Source of the DNA: a virus
Taxonomy: Duplodnaviria > Heunggongvirae > Uroviricota > Caudoviricetes
Virus record (IMG/VR): IMGVR_UViG_2698536428_000020
Reading direction: 5' to 3' (one strand)
Length of the DNA: 39,678 nucleotides
Shown: positions 33,001 to 39,000 of the stretch, in pieces
Layout: the number at the start of each line of letters is the position of its first letter
Numbering within the stretch: the stretch's first letter is position 1
Made by a program: the position numbers

Positions 33001-36000
33001 TGTTATTTAGAGTGTGTGTTAAATGTTATTGCTTACTCGATGTTCCGTCGGTGACAGATGAAAGTTTTCGATCAAGGAATGTTTCAAGTGCATCGTAAAT
33101 AATGGAAATCGCCCCAGACGCCTGAGTGACAACCCCGCTGCAACATCCATGTATCAATATCCTCTTTGGCGGACATCGGTTTGCCGATTGCTGATGTCCG
33201 CCCTTTTTAAAAGTGAATTTTATGATGCGGTGAATGCGGCTATGCGCACGCGGAACAGTTAAACCGACAGGATGTCACGGAAAATCATCATCCCCTGCTC
33301 CGGCGTTAATTGTTAACTGGTTAACGTCACCTGGAGGCACTAGGCACCGCATCAACAAAGTTCATTTGTGAAAATGGAGATAATTATGATTGCTCATCAC
33401 TTCGGAACTGATGAAATACCACGTCAGTGCGTGAAACCTGGCGATTATGTTCTTCATGAAGGCCGCACATATATCGCTTCAGCAAACAATATTGAAAAGA
33501 GAAAGCTCTATATTCGTAGCCTGACTACAAAAACATGCATTACCGACTGCATGATTAAAGTTTTCATCGGGCGCGATGGCTTACCTGTAAAAGCAGAGTA
33601 GTTGTGACGAGTAATAAAATACACCTTCCATATCTGTAACAGACAAACCGAAATAAAAACCACATTAATTATCAATCACGGGAAAATCAAAATGAAAGAA
33701 CTTGCGCAAAATGAATTTTTTTCCGAAACCAGTCCTGATGCAATAAATGAACTCAAAGAAATTGCAGAACGCATCAGTAAAATATGCAAAAAACACAAAA
33801 TCGACTTTGTATTTTCTTTTTCAGTGCTTACAGAAGTTGGAAATAACGAATATAAAGACAGTCGCTTTGTTTCCTTCGGTTTATATTGCGAAACCACCAG
33901 CCCATATATTCATGCTGCATCTGAAATTGTCGACAGTCATATTGATCCACAAAGAATTCAGGAACTGACCCTGGCACTTCAACTTCTCAGAGAAAATGGC
34001 GAATGCAACTGCTCTGACTGCCAGCATGAAAAGAAAAAAACAACTCACAAAACAACAAACCAGGCAACCTTACACTGAAATAAAAAATCCGGCAGCGCAG
34101 GCTACCGGACTCCCCCCTGCGTCACTGTATTCGGAGAAATCAGACAAAGGGCCGCTAATTCTAATCCAGCCAGAGGTTTAAATACAATGAGCGCTGATAA
34201 ACAAACTTTTGCACTGCACTGCGAAGCAAAAAACGATAAAGTCAGAAAACGCCTTGGCATCAAAGGCGGTTTTTTCTGGGCTGATACCAGAAAACTTTCT
34301 GTCGCAGTTTCCCGCTGCATTGCAGCCATGGACGATGCAGGCTACGACGAGGATGATTTCAAAAAACCCGTTCGCGTAAATTTCCCCGTCGTGAATGACC
34401 TTCCACCGGAAGGCGTGTTTGATACTGAATTCTGCAACCGCTATGAAAAAGGCGGGGAAGATGGCATCACCATGATGGCAATCCCCTTCGATGACAACAT
34501 CAACGGTGAAGATGCCACAACAGCTGGCGATGACTACGATAACCTGGACGGAACTATTCCGGATGATGTGGAGAAAAGCGAATCCCCGGACAGCGACGAT
34601 GACTGTTCTGAGTGTGAAATTCCCGTCGCCACTCTGAGCCTTACTCATCGCTTCCTTCACCTCTTCTTCAGCAAAGATGAAGATGGAAAATATCGGCATC
34701 ACGCCACACCCGAACAACGAAATAACGTGATCCGTATGGAGATGGACACAGAAGACAGTTACCTTCAGAGCCTGCTTACTGCTGTGCGTTCACATCCAGA
34801 GCTGGATAAGCTGACGAATTATCATCTGGGAAGACTGGCACAATCCGTTGGAAAGGCATTCTCTCACGCAACACCCCGTCATATCAGCCCGGCCGAATTC
34901 GACAAGTTCATCTCCACCTGGATGAAAACAGACTATGTGGATCAGGGATTGCTGGCAAAAGAATGGCAGAAAGGAAATTATGTTACAGGCATCACTCGTA
35001 CGCCTTCCGGTGCTAACGCTGGCGGCGGAAATCTTACCGATCGTGGCGAAGGCTTTACCCACAATCAGGCATCACTGGCGCGAGACATTGCCACTGGCGT
35101 TCTGGCCCGTTCAATGGATGTGGATATTTATAACCTGCACCCTGCACATGCAAAACGCGTTGAAGAAATCGTTGCAGAGAATAAACCGCCCTTTTCTGTT
35201 TTCCGTGACAAATTCATCGCCATGCCCGGTGGGCTGGATTATTCCCGCGCCATTGTGGTGGCTTCAGTGAAAGAAGCACCAATTGGCATTGAGGCTATCC
35301 CGGCGCGCGTGACTGAATATCTCAACAAAGTGTTGACCGAAACCGATCACTCTAACCCGGATCCGGAAATCGTGGAAATTGCCTGCGGTCGCTCATCAGC
35401 CCCGATGCCGCAGCGCGGAACAGCAGAAGAGATACATGACGATGAAGAAAAGCAGCAAACATCGGACGCAATGTCTAATGAACAGGCAGCGCCTGAATCA
35501 GTGGAAGAAATTCCAGTTAAACATAATGCGGACACGCAATCACTGGAAAATGTCTCATCTGTAGAAACGAAATACCAGGAACTGAGAGCAGAACTCTATG
35601 AAGCCAGGAAAAACATTTTGCCCAAAAATCCTGTCGATGCAGACAAATTGCTGGCTGCCTCTCGTGGGGAGTTCGTTGAAGGCATCAGCGACCCAACCGA
35701 CCCGAAGTGGGTGAAGGGGATCCAGACTCGCGACACTGAGGACCAGAATCAATCCAAAGTGGAACAAAACAGCCCGGATACGCAACAAAACGGACCGGAA
35801 GAGCAACAGCCTGGGCCAGTAATGCAACAGGAAGTGGAAAAGGTTTGCACCGCATGCGGTCAGAACAGTGGCGGGCATTGCCCTGACTGTGGTCCAGTAA
35901 TGGGAGATGAAACTTACGCTGAAACTTTTGGAGAAAATGAGACCGCTGCTGGAGATGACCAGGCACAAATGAAGAATGAATACATTCAGAAAAATGCTGT

Positions 36001-39000
36001 TGATACAACTCAGGAACACGATTCGGTTGTTCACATCGATCCAGATAGTGATGCTTCTGACAATAATGATGATTCAGAGCAAGCAGATTTCGACTGGAAA
36101 AGGCAACTCGTGCTTGCAGCCGTCTATGGTTTGTGCGCAAACCCTGCATGCGTCGCAACAGCGCCAGCAATCCCTGATATCGCAATCATGATTGCCAACA
36201 GGCTTGAAAATTTTGGAGGTGATAAATCATGAATGCCTGGCTTATCCCCGATCGCATTGAAGAGCAGTCATGGGCACGACACTACCGGCAAATTACCCGT
36301 GAAGAAAATGAGACTGAACTGGCGGACGACCTGGAAAAAGGTCTGCCCCAGCACCTGTTTGAATCGCTGTGCATCGATAATCTGCAACGTCATGGAGCCA
36401 GCAAAAAAGCCATTGCCCGTGCATTTGATGACGATGTCGATTTTCAGGAACGCATGGCAGAACACATCCGGTACATGGTTGAAACCATTGCCCGCCACCA
36501 GATTTATATTGATTCAGAGGTATAAACCAGATGAGTACAGCTCTCGCAACGCTGGCAGGGAAGCTGGCTGAACGTGTCGGCATGGATTCTGTCGACCCAC
36601 AGGAACTGATCACCACTCTTCGCCAGACTGCATTTAAAGGTGATGCCAGCGATGCGCAGTTCATCGCATTGCTGATCGTTGCCAACCAGTACGGCCTTAA
36701 TCCATGGACGAAAGAAATTTACGCCTTCCCTGATAAGCAGAACGGCATCGTTCCGGTGGTGGGCGTTGATGGCTGGTCCCGCATTATCAACGAAAACCAG
36801 CAGTTTGATGGCATGGACTTTGAGCAGAACGATGAATCCTGTACATGTCGGATTTACCGCAAAGACCGTAATCACCCGATCTGCGTTACCGAGTGGATGG
36901 ATGAATGTCGCCGCGCACCATTCAAAACCCGCGAAGGCAGAGAAATCACGGGGCCGTGGCAGTCGCATCCCAAACGGATGTTACGGCATAAAGCGATGAT
37001 TCAGTGTGCCCGTCTGGCCTTCGGATTTGCTGGTATCTATGACAAGGATGAAGCCGAACGCATTGTCGAAAATACCGCATATACTACAGAACGTCAGCCG
37101 GAACGCGACATCACCCCGGTTAACGAAGAGACCATGTCGGAAATTAACGCCCTTCTTACTTCCATGGAAAAAACGTGGGATGACGACCTCTTGCCGCTCT
37201 GTTCTCAGATATTTCGCCGCTACATTCGGGCGTCGTCAGAACTGTCCCAGGCCGAAGCAGAGAAGGTTCTTGGATTCCTGAAACAGAAAGCCACGGAGCA
37301 GAAGGTGGCAGCATGACACCAGAAATTATCCTACAACGTACCGGGATCGACGTGAGAGGTGTCGAGCAGGGAGATTATGCATGGCAAAAATTACGGCTCG
37401 GGGTCATCACAGCTTCAGAAGTTCACAACGTGATAGCCAAACCCCGCTCCGGAAAGAAATGGCCTGACATGAAAATGTCCTACTTCCACACCCTGCTGGC
37501 TGAGGTCTGCACGGGTGTGGCCCCGGAAGTTAACGCCAAAGCCCTGTTTGAGTTTACTTCCGGCGTGAATATTACTGAATCCCCGATCATCTATCGCGAC
37601 GAAAGTATGCGTACCGCCTGCTCTCCGGATGGATTATGCAGTGACGGCAACGGCCTTGAGCTGAAATGTCCGTTTACCTCCCGGGATTTCATGAAATTCC
37701 GGCTCGGTGGTTTCGAGGCCATAAAATCAGCTTACATGGCCCAGGTGCAATTCAGCATGTGGGTGACTCGAAAAGATGCCTGGTACTTCGCCAACTATGA
37801 CCCGCGCATGAAGCGTGAAGGCCTGCATTATGTCGTGGTCGAGCGGGATGAAAAATACATGGCTGGTTTTGACGAGATGGTGCCGGAGTTCATCGAAAAA
37901 ATGGACGAAGCACTGGCTGAAATTAGTTTTGTATTTGGGGAGCAATGGCGATAGCCGTAGCAACGAGGTGCAAATGATATGACAGTTAAGGAATGCTACC
38001 GGTGTTCGTCCTGATCCAGCGCGGGCAATCTTTCGTCGATGCCAACAACTATCCGGTGGAAATCTGCAAGGTAACTCTTACTCAGGTGATCTACCGAAGA
38101 CTCGACGGCAGAACCCGAGCCACTTCAATTGGTGCATTTAATGAAGAATTTGAGCGAGTCGACCACAACGAACTACACATGATTAAAGCGGAAATTGAGA
38201 AGGAAATGCATATTGCCAGCCTTCGAAAAATGCGACGTACATCAATCAACTGACAACCGCCTTCGGGCGGTTTTTAATGGCAAAAATATGGATTCACACA
38301 GTATCACCCTCAAAGAGGCCTGTCAGTTTCTCAAGATATCAAGGCCAACAGCTGTTAACTGGATACGAACGGGCCGACTACAGGCAACACGAAAAAATTC
38401 TTCCGGTAAAAGATCACCTTATCTCACAACCCGGCAAGCCTGCATTGCAGCACTTCATTCACCGCTGCATACTGTCCAGGTGAGCGCGGGTGATGGCATA
38501 ACAGAGGAAAGAAAATGTCACTCTTCCGCAGAGGTGAAATATGGTACGCCTCGTACTCGCTCCCGGGCGGGAAGCGAATTAAGGAGTCTCTTGGCACAAA
38601 GGACAAGCGGCAAGCTCAGGAGTTGCACGACAAGCGAAAAGCAGAACTCTGGCGAGTAGACAGACTGGGGGATATGCCAGATGTCACTTTCGAAGAAGCC
38701 TGCCTGAGATGGCTTGAGGAAAAAGCCGACAAGAAATCCATCGATTCCGATAAATCCAGAATCGCATTCTGGATTGAGCATTTCGAGGGAATAAGGATTA
38801 AGGATATATCGGAGGCAATGATCTACTCAGTTATCAGCAAAGCGTATAACCGAAAAACAAAGGAGAGATGGAAGTTGCAGGTGGAGGCTGCATTAAGAAA
38901 AGGGAAAGAACCACCAGCCTATATACCTAAATCGGTGAGCACGCAAACAAAAGCAACACACCTGGCAATGATCAAGGCTATTCTGCGCGCCGCAGAGCGA

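What the first reader, a model, noticed from the sequence alone, without database searches (positions are those of the whole stretch)
34187..36232. 681-aa highly acidic zinc-ribbon protein translationally coupled to gam in the early-left operon
This is the largest early gene and lies where lambda has kil/cIII. It is very Asp/Glu-rich with CxxC pairs (CSEC; CTACGQNSGGHCPDCG), and its stop overlaps the gam start (ATGA). Large acidic early proteins co-transcribed with a RecBCD inhibitor are plausible anti-defence (DNA-mimic or anti-restriction) or host-takeover factors. I cannot assign it to a named family.
Basis: inference. Interest (0 to 1): 0.65.

Follow-up and report, generated by a model that had tools for sequence, protein, structure and literature searches.

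The report
Nuclease-less RecE-like early phage protein
The large acidic gene in front of gam is a relative of the poorly understood front two-thirds of the phage recombination enzyme RecE that lacks the DNA-cutting domain and ends instead in a small conserved tail, so its database label "exonuclease" is probably wrong and its real job is still unknown.

Summary
There is a 681-aa ORF at 34187-36232(+), with pI 4.56, net charge -58, a Cys4 knuckle, and a stop that overlaps the gam start (TCATGA).

It can be assigned to a family. It is homologous to the N-terminal ~600 residues of RecE/exonuclease VIII (Pfam PF06630, NCBIfam NF007259, PHROG 607), but the match stops before the nuclease domain. 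Public records call it "RecE family exodeoxyribonuclease", yet no nuclease domain is present.

It is not a decayed gene. Many E. coli/Shigella prophages keep full-length ~680-700-aa copies. dN/dS is 0.22-0.28 overall and 0.07 in the C-terminal tail.

Across the family, the conserved platform ends in a PD-(D/E)XK nuclease, a DnaQ-type nuclease, or this ~45-aa two-helix tail.

Nearly all the negative charge lies in predicted disordered linkers, and RecE itself has the same linker acidity. That argues against a structured DNA mimic.

Fold searches gave no informative match. The literature calls the RecE N-terminal region "of unknown function" and has already noted nuclease-less "RecE-2" proteins.

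My best reading is a non-catalytic scaffold or adaptor in early-left DNA transactions. That mechanism is inferred, not shown. Interest is modest.

The parts
34187..36232 (+). Complete ORF: 681-aa nuclease-less RecE-N-region family protein (stop at 36230-36232)
   Evidence: ORF listing. Profile hits PF06630, NF007259 and PHROG 607. 100 % identical gene annotated 'RecE family exodeoxyribonuclease' in E. coli S19-651.
34187..34495 (+). N-terminal alpha/beta domain (aa 1-103)
34496..34618 (+). Acidic disordered linker 1 (aa 104-144, net -15), containing the clade-specific CSEC
   Evidence: pLDDT <50 over aa 104-133. 39 % Asp+Glu. dN/dS 0.5-1.05. CSEC-type CxxC present in 97/112 close relatives and 1/84 representatives (a second representative has the degenerate DFPECEI, one Cys lost).
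34619..35416 (+). Conserved helical core (aa 145-410), the family-defining region, with motifs RTPSGANAGGGNLTDR (271-286) and PGGLDYSRA (347-355)
   Evidence: pLDDT mostly >90. dN/dS 0.10-0.14. 79 % identical to Rac RecE over aa 231-410. It is the region shared by most of the 217 family clusters.
35417..35551 (+). Acidic disordered linker 2 (aa 411-455, net -11)
   Evidence: pLDDT <50; composition; dN/dS 0.6-0.7.
35552..35662 (+). Short helical element (aa 456-492)
   Evidence: Helices 456-476 and 485-492, pLDDT 72-88. About 80 % identical to Rac RecE and the O157 relative over aa 456-520. dN/dS 0.12.
35846..35890 (+). Cys4 knuckle C-x2-C-x7-C-x2-C (aa 554-568), putative zinc site inside linker 3
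   Evidence: Sequence. Aligned to CNACGQTGGDNCPDCG of Rac RecE. Cysteines kept in 107/112 close relatives. Pfam DZR only E 0.28. Low AF2 confidence.
36089..36229 (+). Conserved C-terminal tail module (aa 635-681): two-helix hairpin, motif WKxQ..AA..G.CANPA....IP..A.MIAN
   Evidence: Helices 637-651 and 659-679. dN/dS 0.07. A644, A645, G648, C650, N652 and P653 are invariant in 22 clusters that share only 21-28 % identity overall. The module is always at the extreme C-terminus, in place of a nuclease domain.
36229..36525 (+). gam (98 aa, GamS-length), translationally coupled to the ORF
   Evidence: PF06064 E 5e-62; ATGA overlap.
36531..37316 (+). bet (261 aa)
   Evidence: ORF; annotated Bet in the near-identical phages.
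37313..37954 (+). exo (213 aa; lambda-type exonuclease carrying a 13-aa in-frame deletion)
   Evidence: PF09588 YqaJ; alignment to the 226-aa Exo of phage 75/02 Stx.
33368..33601 (+). kil homologue, upstream in the same operon
   Evidence: PHROG 294, E 6e-37.
33692..34078 (+). 128-aa ORF of unknown function immediately upstream (positional counterpart of racC, but unrelated in sequence)
   Evidence: PHROG 2016, unknown function; no similarity to RacC.

Best explanation
IDENTITY (well supported, about 0.95). The ORF encodes a nuclease-less member of the RecE/exonuclease VIII N-terminal-region family. It corresponds to the ~600 residues of RecE that are dispensable for nuclease activity and have no established function. 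Here that region ends in a conserved ~45-residue two-helix tail instead of a nuclease domain. The protein is built like beads on a string: an alpha/beta N-domain, a large helical core, a short helical element, a Cys4 knuckle and the tail, all joined by acidic disordered linkers that hold almost all the negative charge. It is under purifying selection. It is very unlikely to be an exonuclease, whatever its database label says.

MECHANISM (inferred, about 0.35). It acts as a non-catalytic scaffold or adaptor in the DNA-transaction programme of the phage early-left operon. The conserved platform (N-domain plus helical core) would recognise a common target, either a DNA end or recombination/replication intermediate, or a host factor. 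The variable C-terminal end would supply the output. In RecE that output is a fused 5'-3' PD-(D/E)XK nuclease. In the O157-type relatives it is a fused 3'-5' DnaQ-type nuclease. In the tail class it is a helical hairpin that either oligomerises the platform or docks a protein supplied in trans. In this phage the protein is made together with Gam (translational coupling) and is co-transcribed with Bet and Exo. So it may do for Red what the N-terminal region does in cis for RecE, where it enhances end-to-end (linear-linear) recombination.

SHOWN: homology, domain layout, absence of a nuclease domain, selection, the alternation of C-terminal modules, and gene context. INFERRED: non-catalytic scaffold function, any partner, and any effect on recombination.

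The confidence value given (0.4) is for the statement as a whole, mechanism included.
For: Homology: NF007259 covers aa 1-626 and profile positions 1-593 of 877, scoring 744 bits against a cut-off of 1269. PHROG 607 covers profile positions 1-618 of 883. PF06630 also matches. BLASTP gives 54 % identity to Rac RecE residues 43-546 and 59 % to residues 1-604 of an 814-aa O157 'exonuclease'.

No nuclease domain: Rac RecE has PF12684 (PDDEXK) at 615-850 and the O157 protein has PF16473 (DnaQ-like) at 633-804. The window protein has neither, and gam starts at its stop codon.

A stable gene: more than 100 clusters of 680-700-aa full-length relatives at 79-100 % identity. Of 5426 complete E. coli genomes, 89 carry a copy with at least 80 % coverage. 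The gene order is conserved. dN/dS is 0.22-0.28 overall, 0.10-0.14 in the core, 0.07 in the tail and 0.5-1.0 in the linkers.

Modular C-terminus: of 87 representatives of at least 450 aa, 21 have PDDEXK, 15 DnaQ, 22 the tail, 2 a RecT-like match and 27 none of these modules (Pfam confirmation). The tail motif is invariant at 6 positions across clusters that are 21-28 % identical overall.

Structure: AF2 mean pLDDT is 75, with confident folded domains separated by disordered linkers.

Scaffold-like conservation: there is no invariant Asp/Glu/His constellation.

Context: all classes occupy the same slot, as the last large gene of the early-left operon after kil and before xis/int. PDDEXK members are followed by RecT.

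[quoted passage not shown] 2012). Nuclease-less 'RecE-2' proteins have been noted with unknown roles (PMC12315714).
Against: Nothing here shows that the protein binds DNA, Exo, Bet, Gam or a host protein.

Most distant tail-class genes lie directly before xis/int with no phage exonuclease or annealase nearby. The protein therefore cannot depend in general on Red-type partners, which weakens the 'works with Red' part of the explanation.

The only functional datum for the homologous region (the linear-linear recombination effect) concerns RecE, where the region is fused in cis to the nuclease. I could not read the primary paper.

The exo allele in this very window carries a 13-aa deletion, so a Red-dependent role may not even operate in this prophage.

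Q253 replaces an Arg that is present in 87 % of family members.
Confidence: 0.4

Rival explanations
1. Counter-defence or host-takeover factor. The protein would inhibit or decoy a host nuclease or defence system, either through its acidic disordered linkers acting as a nucleic-acid mimic or through the platform or tail binding a host protein.
For: It is an early-left operon gene between kil and gam and is translationally coupled to the RecBCD inhibitor Gam. In Rac, the neighbouring slot holds racC, a retron-toxin blocker (bioRxiv 10.1101/2020.06.22.160242). Most tail-class relatives occur without any phage recombinase, which suggests a host target. The protein is very acidic, with a net charge of -58.
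Against: There are no matches to PADLOC, Pfam or PHROG anti-defence families and no fold matches to Ocr, ArdA or Gam-type mimics. The charge lies in fast-evolving disordered linkers and not on a folded surface, and the linker acidity is shared by nuclease-bearing RecE. The conserved parts are homologous to part of a recombination exonuclease. An anti-RecBCD role would duplicate the co-translated Gam.
Confidence: 0.2
2. Modulator of prophage excision/integration or of the lysis-lysogeny or induction programme. The family's constant position just upstream of xis/int would reflect a role in site-specific recombination or its timing, rather than in homologous recombination.
For: In eight distant loci, the DnaQ-type or tail-class gene is separated from xis/int by zero to two small ORFs.
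Against: The position is equally explained by the canonical location of Rec modules and accessory genes. In the window, in L022 and in Rac, other genes (gam-bet-exo; recT-ralR) lie between the gene and xis/int. Fusion to processive exonuclease domains is hard to reconcile with a role in site-specific recombination.
Confidence: 0.07
3. Non-functional remnant. A recE gene lost its nuclease domain and recT when a gam-bet-exo cassette recombined in, and the tail is merely read-through of junction sequence.
For: The protein is mosaic: the N-domain resembles the O157 type, aa 231-585 resemble Rac RecE, and the tail is unrelated to either. Similarity to 933W-type Red DNA begins 42 nt inside gam.
Against: The full-length ORF is intact in more than 100 sequence clusters. 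dN/dS is 0.22-0.28 overall and 0.07 in the tail. The tail module is conserved in at least 22 clusters from several genera, many of which have no Red genes next to them, so the Red junction did not create it.
Confidence: 0.03
4. It is a genuine exonuclease, as annotated ('exodeoxyribonuclease VIII' or 'RecE family exodeoxyribonuclease').
For: Public annotations and strong profile matches to RecE families.
Against: All matches cover only the non-catalytic N-terminal part of the profiles. The NCBIfam score of 744 is far below the equivalog cut-off of 1269. No PDDEXK, DnaQ or other nuclease domain is detected by Pfam, by local phmmer probes or by structure prediction. No conserved catalytic-type residues are seen.
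Confidence: 0.02

Closest known systems
RecE (exonuclease VIII) of the E. coli Rac prophage, N-terminal region (about residues 1-600)
   Same: Clear homology: 54 % identity over RecE residues 43-546, and about 80 % over the core and the 456-520 element. Both have the Cys4 knuckle, the acidic linkers (net -53 over RecE 1-600), and a position in the early-left operon after kil.
   Different: There is no PD-(D/E)XK nuclease domain (RecE 615-850, PF12684). The protein ends in a conserved 45-aa tail that RecE lacks. The N-domain and residues 145-230 are only 18-40 % identical. The downstream partner genes are lambda-type gam-bet-exo, not recT.
DnaQ-type 'exonuclease' of E. coli O157 and related prophages (for example WP_000102181.1, 814 aa)
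   Same: 59 % identity over residues 1-613, including a 70-86 % identical N-domain and the same Zn knuckle. It occupies the same operon slot.
   Different: That protein ends in a PF16473 (Rv2179c-like) 3'-5' exonuclease domain and lies directly before xis/int, with no Gam, Bet or Exo.
'RecE-2' proteins of lambdoid phages (Genome Res 2025, PMC12315714)
   Same: [quoted passage not shown] That is exactly what is found here.
   Different: I could not check whether this phage lineage is on their list, because no supplement is held. The paper calls them 'distantly related', whereas this protein is up to about 80 % identical to Rac RecE in its core. The paper does not describe the tail module or its alternation with nuclease domains.
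DNA-mimic anti-restriction or anti-nuclease proteins (T7 Ocr, ArdA, lambda Gam)
   Same: All are acidic, early-expressed phage proteins. This one is co-translated with Gam.
   Different: Those proteins are compact folded mimics with ordered arrays of acidic side chains (my own knowledge). Here the charge is in disordered, fast-evolving linkers, and there is no sequence or fold similarity.
P22 Abc1 and Arf (accessory Rec-module proteins)
   Same: They are Rec-module-encoded accessory proteins that aid homologous recombination but are not essential, and their mechanism is unknown (as summarised in PMC12315714). This is a functional analogy for the proposed role.
   Different: There is no detected homology, and they are much smaller proteins.

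Membership tests
RecE / exodeoxyribonuclease VIII (NCBIfam NF007259 equivalog) | N-terminal RecE-specific region (Pfam PF06630 and flanking conserved core) | tested here: met
   PF06630 E 3.7e-12 over aa 53-196. NF007259 aligned over aa 1-626. 54 % identity to Rac RecE residues 43-546.
RecE / exodeoxyribonuclease VIII (NCBIfam NF007259 equivalog) | C-terminal PD-(D/E)XK 5'-3' exonuclease domain (RecE residues ~606-866; PF12684) | tested here: not met
   Profile matches stop at position 593 of 877 (NCBIfam) and 618 of 883 (PHROG). There is no PF12684 hit, whereas Rac RecE gives E 4e-28. A local phmmer probe with RecE 600-866 finds nothing in the window protein.
RecE / exodeoxyribonuclease VIII (NCBIfam NF007259 equivalog) | Whole-protein score at or above the curated equivalog cut-off | tested here: not met
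   744 bits against a cut-off of 1269.
RecE / exodeoxyribonuclease VIII (NCBIfam NF007259 equivalog) | Adjacent recT partner gene (RecET pair) | tested here: not met
   The gene is followed by gam, lambda-type bet and a separate lambda-type exo. PDDEXK-class relatives are followed by RecT.
RecE / exodeoxyribonuclease VIII (NCBIfam NF007259 equivalog) | dsDNA 5'-3' exonuclease activity | not testable with these tools
   This needs a biochemical assay. It is predicted to be absent because no nuclease domain is present.
Nuclease-less RecE-like early-left proteins ('RecE-2', PMC12315714) | Sequence relationship to Rac/Gifsy-1 RecE | tested here: met
   The distant tail-class member P0213, used as the query, matches Gifsy-1 and related 'exodeoxyribonuclease VIII' genes.
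Nuclease-less RecE-like early-left proteins ('RecE-2', PMC12315714) | No nuclease domain in the predicted structure | tested here: met
   After residue ~492 the AF2 model has only disordered linker, the knuckle and two tail helices. No nuclease matches appear in the fold searches.
Nuclease-less RecE-like early-left proteins ('RecE-2', PMC12315714) | Encoded in the early-left operon of a lambdoid phage | tested here: met
   Gene order is N-like, orf238, orf125, kil, orf128, this gene, gam, bet, exo, int, all on one strand.
Nuclease-less RecE-like early-left proteins ('RecE-2', PMC12315714) | Listed by the authors as RecE-2 | not testable with these tools
   The supplementary tables are not held.
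DNA-mimic anti-restriction/anti-nuclease proteins (Ocr, ArdA, Gam-like) | Sequence or fold similarity to a known mimic family | tested here: not met
DNA-mimic anti-restriction/anti-nuclease proteins (Ocr, ArdA, Gam-like) | Negative charge displayed on a folded, conserved surface | tested here: not met
   -49 of the -58 net charge is in predicted disordered linkers with dN/dS of 0.5-1.0. The folded parts carry -7 over 453 aa.
DNA-mimic anti-restriction/anti-nuclease proteins (Ocr, ArdA, Gam-like) | Inhibition of a restriction enzyme or RecBCD | not testable with these tools
   This needs genetic or biochemical assays.
Zinc-ribbon / Cys4 zinc knuckle | Two CxxC pairs with short spacing, conserved among relatives | tested here: met
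   C554, C557, C565 and C568. They align with Rac RecE and the O157 relative. All four Cys are kept in 107/112 close relatives.
Zinc-ribbon / Cys4 zinc knuckle | Significant match to a zinc-ribbon profile, or a confident ribbon fold | tested here: inconclusive
   Pfam DZR gives E 0.28, below threshold. AF2 pLDDT is 34-55 in this stretch.
Zinc-ribbon / Cys4 zinc knuckle | Metal binding | not testable with these tools
   This needs metal analysis of purified protein.

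The most novel reading that the evidence does not exclude
The RecE N-terminal region would be a general nuclease-delivery platform, and the conserved ~45-aa tail would be a docking module that recruits a nuclease or another effector in trans. The effector could be the phage's own Exo or Gam in this lineage, and a host exonuclease in prophages that have no Rec genes. The protein would then be a 'split RecE'. If so, the three C-terminal classes (PDDEXK, DnaQ, tail) are alternative ways of arming one targeting scaffold. Identifying what the platform binds would explain both the long-unexplained N-terminal two-thirds of RecE and its stimulation of linear-linear recombination.
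Probability: 0.15. Interest if true: 0.6.

Novelty: new variant of a known kind. Interest (0 to 1): 0.35.

Why it matters
RecE/RecT is a standard tool of recombineering and direct cloning, yet two-thirds of RecE has had no assigned function for decades (PMC11611040, PMC11610958).

A naturally occurring, strongly conserved version of that region exists without the nuclease. It is present in plaque-forming Stx and lambdoid phages that grow on E. coli K-12 (PhiR5_2). That makes it a clean genetic handle for finding out what the platform does.

The alternation of two different nuclease domains with a small invariant tail suggests the platform is a targeting module. If that is true, it could be exploited to improve Red or RecET recombineering.

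On the practical side, thousands of database entries label these proteins 'exodeoxyribonuclease VIII', 'exonuclease VII' or 'RecE family exodeoxyribonuclease' although they lack any nuclease domain. Rec-module inventories and analyses of defence triggers could be misled by this. One example is retron activation by RecE's nuclease activity (bioRxiv 10.1101/2020.06.22.160242).

Tried and rejected

2. Sequence searches against the PDB found nothing, with either the whole protein or a tail profile.

3. A tail-profile search of 5.8 billion proteins recovered only fragments and short remnants of the same gene type. One example is a 79-aa Serratia ORF that sits in the same slot of a degraded prophage. 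There is no evidence for the tail as a free-standing protein or in another architecture.

4. My own hypothesis that the tail docks onto lambda Exo or Bet is weakened. The four distant tail-class loci with annotated neighbours and most of the seven found by pattern scan have no Gam, Bet, Exo or RecT next to the gene. Between the window and the 66 %-identical L022 lineage, the tail is 45 % identical while Exo (95 %) and Bet (89 %) are nearly unchanged. Gam (68 %) does co-diverge, but with only two lineages and a known mosaic boundary inside gam this is not evidence of interaction.

5. I looked for a catalytic site in the helical core. There is no invariant acidic/His constellation, only moderately conserved Gly-rich and DYSR motifs.

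6. RacC-like counter-defence neighbour: the upstream 128-aa ORF has no similarity to RacC.

7. Independent transcription signals: promoter- and terminator-like sites occur at chance frequency around the gene.

8. The first literature search was useless, because word-start matching of 'RecE' hit 'receptor'. Fu et al. 2012 is not held, and the Genome Research supplement is not held.

9. An SSB-tip-like ending ('...DDEHIPDF') is seen in some relatives, but only in a subclade and not in this protein.

Full report
OBSERVATION. The protein has pI 4.56, 18.2 % Asp+Glu and a net charge of -58. It has CxxC motifs at residues 140, 554 and 565, so residues 554-568 form a C-x2-C-x7-C-x2-C knuckle. Its TGA stop overlaps the gam ATG (…AAATCATGAATG…), and a GAGG lies just upstream of that ATG. 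Downstream are gam (PF06064, E 5e-62), bet, exo (PF09588), a DUF4222 ORF and int. Upstream are a Kil homologue (PHROG 294) and a 128-aa ORF of unknown function. Promoter- and terminator-like sites in 31000-38600 are no more frequent than in shuffled sequence. This fits one early-left transcription unit. The window is a Stx1-type short-tailed lambdoid prophage, 97-99 % identical to Shigella phages 75/02 Stx, Ss-VASD and POCJ13. The gene itself is 100 % identical to one in the E. coli S19-651 chromosome.

FAMILY ASSIGNMENT. NCBIfam NF007259 (exodeoxyribonuclease VIII) aligns with residues 1-626 at E 2e-223. PHROG 607 aligns with residues 1-679 at E 1e-255. Pfam PF06630 (Exonuc_VIII) matches residues 53-196. 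All three matches cover only the front of the profiles (positions 1-593 of 877 and 1-618 of 883). The NCBIfam score of 744 bits is far below the equivalog cut-off of 1269. BLASTP against Rac prophage RecE (866 aa) gives 54 % identity over RecE residues 43-546. Rac RecE has its PD-(D/E)XK nuclease domain (PF12684) at 615-850. The window protein has no counterpart to it, because gam begins at its stop codon. An 814-aa 'exonuclease' from an O157 prophage is 59 % identical over residues 1-613 and then carries a DnaQ-like 3'-5' exonuclease domain (PF16473) instead. PADLOC gives nothing. Public records annotate the window-type gene as 'exodeoxyribonuclease VIII', 'RecE family exodeoxyribonuclease' or 'exonuclease VII'. 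Because the match is only to the non-catalytic part, that name is very probably a misnomer.

NOT A WRECK. The nuclease-less form is a stable gene. The large protein database holds more than 100 clusters at 90 % identity of full-length 680-700-aa relatives, 79-100 % identical with 100 % coverage, from E. coli and Shigella. Of 5426 complete E. coli genomes, 89 carry a copy with at least 80 % coverage. The order Kil, ~128-aa ORF, this gene, Gam, Bet, Exo recurs in copies whose DNA is only 88-92 % identical, and in a lineage that is only 66 % identical at the protein level (L022). Nei-Gojobori dN/dS against three diverged copies is 0.22-0.28 overall. It is 0.10-0.14 in residues 161-400, 0.12 in residues 456-520 and 0.07 in the last 47 residues. 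It is 0.5-1.0 in the acidic stretches. So the folded parts and the C-terminal tail are under purifying selection, while the linkers drift.

ARCHITECTURE. I made an AlphaFold2 model with a 64-sequence alignment of diverse representatives. Mean pLDDT is 75, and 340 residues score above 90. The model shows an alpha/beta N-domain (residues 1-103), a large helical domain (about 145-410), two short helices (456-492) and a two-helix C-terminal hairpin (637-651 and 659-679). These are separated by low-confidence stretches at 104-133, 412-454 and 512-634, and the Cys4 knuckle lies inside the last of these. Of the net charge of -58, -49 lies in the ~204 linker residues, and the 453 folded residues carry only -7. 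Rac RecE 1-600 (net -53) and the DnaQ-type relative 1-620 (net -46) are just as acidic. The acidity is therefore a family property of flexible linkers and not a folded DNA-like surface. This is the main argument against the DNA-mimic reading. The knuckle's cysteines are kept in 107 of 112 close relatives but in only 7 of 84 family representatives. The CSEC-position CxxC is kept in 97 of 112 and 1 of 84. Both are clade-specific embellishments.

THE FAMILY AND ITS VARIABLE END. An exhaustive HMMER search of 1.84 billion cluster representatives found only 217 clusters at E of 1e-3 or better, with lengths from about 450 to 1089 aa. The most widely shared region corresponds to residues ~145-420. 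Using module probes on the 87 representatives of at least 450 aa, 21 end in a RecE-type PD-(D/E)XK domain and 15 in a DnaQ-type domain. Another 22 end in the tail module seen here, always at the extreme C-terminus. Two have a RecT-like match and 27 have none of these. Pfam scans of 64 members confirm the two nuclease types. The tail motif (…L-T-Y-x-Q-Q-L-T-I-A-A-L-Q-G-L-C-A-N-P-A…I-P-x-M-A…) is invariant at A644, A645, G648, C650, N652 and P653 in 22 clusters that are only 21-28 % identical overall. The window protein is itself mosaic. Its N-domain resembles the O157 type (70-86 %) and not Rac RecE (18-40 %). Residues 231-585 are about 77-80 % identical to both. The tail resembles only tail-class proteins (36-45 %). 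The tail is thus a recurrent, strongly constrained alternative to a nuclease domain, and not junction read-through.

CONTEXT ACROSS THE FAMILY. All classes occupy the same slot, as the last large gene of the early-left operon, after kil-type genes and before xis/int. PD-(D/E)XK members are followed by recT (Rac; P0134). DnaQ-type members lie directly before xis/int. Distant tail-class members from Citrobacter, Lelliottia, Buttiauxella, Cedecea and metagenomes also lie directly before xis/int. tblastn and Pfam detect no Gam, Bet, Exo or RecT near them. Only the window lineage and the L022 lineage combine a tail-class gene with gam-bet-exo. This weakens my working idea that the tail docks onto the Red proteins. 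If the tail recruits something, it must usually be a host protein or another copy of itself. Between the window and L022, the tail is 45 % identical, Gam 68 %, Bet 89 % and Exo 95 %. The parallel divergence of Gam is most simply explained by a mosaic boundary, since similarity to 933W-type DNA starts 42 nt inside gam.

LITERATURE. [quoted passage not shown] They also state that the nuclease domain substitutes genetically for the whole protein, and that full-length RecE is better at linear-linear recombination (PMC11611040; PMC11610958; both cite Fu et al. 2012, which I could not read). [quoted passage not shown] It also reports DnaQ-like nucleases in or near Rec modules (PMC12315714). Its supplement is not held, so I cannot confirm that this lineage is listed. 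In Rac, RecE triggers retron toxin-antitoxin systems by degrading msDNA with its nuclease, and the adjacent racC blocks the toxin (bioRxiv 10.1101/2020.06.22.160242). A nuclease-less relative would not be expected to trigger retrons in that way; this is my inference.

INTERPRETATION. With high confidence, this is a nuclease-less member of the RecE N-terminal-region family, with a distinct conserved C-terminal tail. It is functional in the sense of being under selection, and it is not an exonuclease. Its function is unknown. I commit, at roughly 0.35, to a non-catalytic scaffold or adaptor role in early-left DNA transactions. In this view a conserved platform recognises a common target and the variable C-terminus provides the output: a fused 5'-3' nuclease, a fused 3'-5' nuclease, or a tail that oligomerises the platform or docks a factor in trans. 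In this phage the protein is made together with Gam, Bet and Exo. The main rival is a counter-defence or host-takeover role (about 0.2). It is compatible with the operon position and with the many Rec-less tail-class prophages, but no homology or structural evidence supports it, and the charge distribution disfavours its DNA-mimic form. A role tied to excision or integration (about 0.07), a dead remnant (about 0.03) and a true exonuclease (about 0.02) are less likely. The rest of the probability is 'something else'.

NOVELTY AND SCORE. The gene is present and annotated in published phage genomes, and the existence of nuclease-less RecE relatives has been noted in print. The thing itself is therefore not new. 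This analysis adds four points. First, the tail is a conserved module that alternates with two nuclease types on a common platform. Second, the acidity is a linker property shared with RecE. Third, the ORF, including its tail, is under strong purifying selection. Fourth, the exonuclease annotation is unsupported. I classify it as a variant of a known kind and score interest at 0.35. A recombination specialist would not be very surprised, but the protein offers a clean handle on the long-unexplained N-terminal region of RecE.

Noticed in passing
window 37313-37954 (+): The exo gene encodes 213 aa instead of 226. A 13-aa in-frame deletion (AWGKQYENDARAL, after residue 78) is the only difference from the Exo of Shigella phage 75/02 Stx. 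The lambda-type exonuclease of this prophage may be impaired.
   Followed up: partly
window 31950-32666 (+): A 238-aa early-left ORF (PHROG 2539, unknown function) has a central Cys-rich segment (aa ~100-160). That segment matches PHROGs annotated as Lar-like restriction alleviation protein (E 1e-9) and as endonuclease VII/HNH-type zinc fingers. It is a possible anti-restriction or nucleic-acid-binding module, and arguably a better anti-defence candidate than the finding itself.
   Followed up: no
proteins P0122, P0129, P0132, P0239, P0246, P0096 (relatives, not in the window): A subclade of tail-class proteins extends past the tail with an acidic-hydrophobic tip such as '…DDEHIPDF', '…SDERLPDF' or '…DDEYMPNF'. 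From my own knowledge this resembles the SSB C-terminal tip (…DDDIPF). The window protein ends '…NFGGDKS' and lacks it.
   Followed up: partly
proteins P0124 (703 aa), P0203 (615 aa): Two family representatives have the RecE-type N-terminal region followed by a RecT-like match, with no nuclease domain between them in the module table. They could be deletion fusions of recE and recT or gene-calling artefacts.
   Followed up: no
L014 6001-6240 (Serratia quinivorans prophage): A 79-aa ORF consists of little more than the tail module. It sits between DUF1482 and a xis-like gene/int, exactly where the large gene normally lies. It is probably an internal-deletion remnant that kept the tail in frame.
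   Followed up: partly
window 34943-34945 (residue Q253 of the ORF): The window protein has Gln at a position where 87 % of 64 diverse family members have Arg. The significance is unknown.
   Followed up: no
L018 8442-8996: An 814-aa family member with no recognisable C-terminal domain is followed by a Sipho_Gp157 (PF05565) gene and then xis/int. The family's 'none/other' class (27 of 87 representatives) may hide further C-terminal modules.
   Followed up: no
L020 387-3092 (P0158): Precomputed Pfam hits on a DnaQ-class member include PF27432 (YdfE_C). This suggests that YdfE, which from my own knowledge belongs to the E. coli K-12 Qin prophage, is part of the same family.
   Followed up: no
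window 31887-31908 (+): A 9-bp GC-rich hairpin followed by a T-run (terminator-like) lies just upstream of the 238-aa ORF, after the N-like gene region. It could be an N-antiterminated tL-type terminator.
   Followed up: no
RefSeq phage records NC_029120.1 and NC_025434.1; PHROG 607: The gene is labelled 'exonuclease VII' there. This appears to be a slip for exonuclease VIII, added to the already doubtful exonuclease assignment.
   Followed up: no
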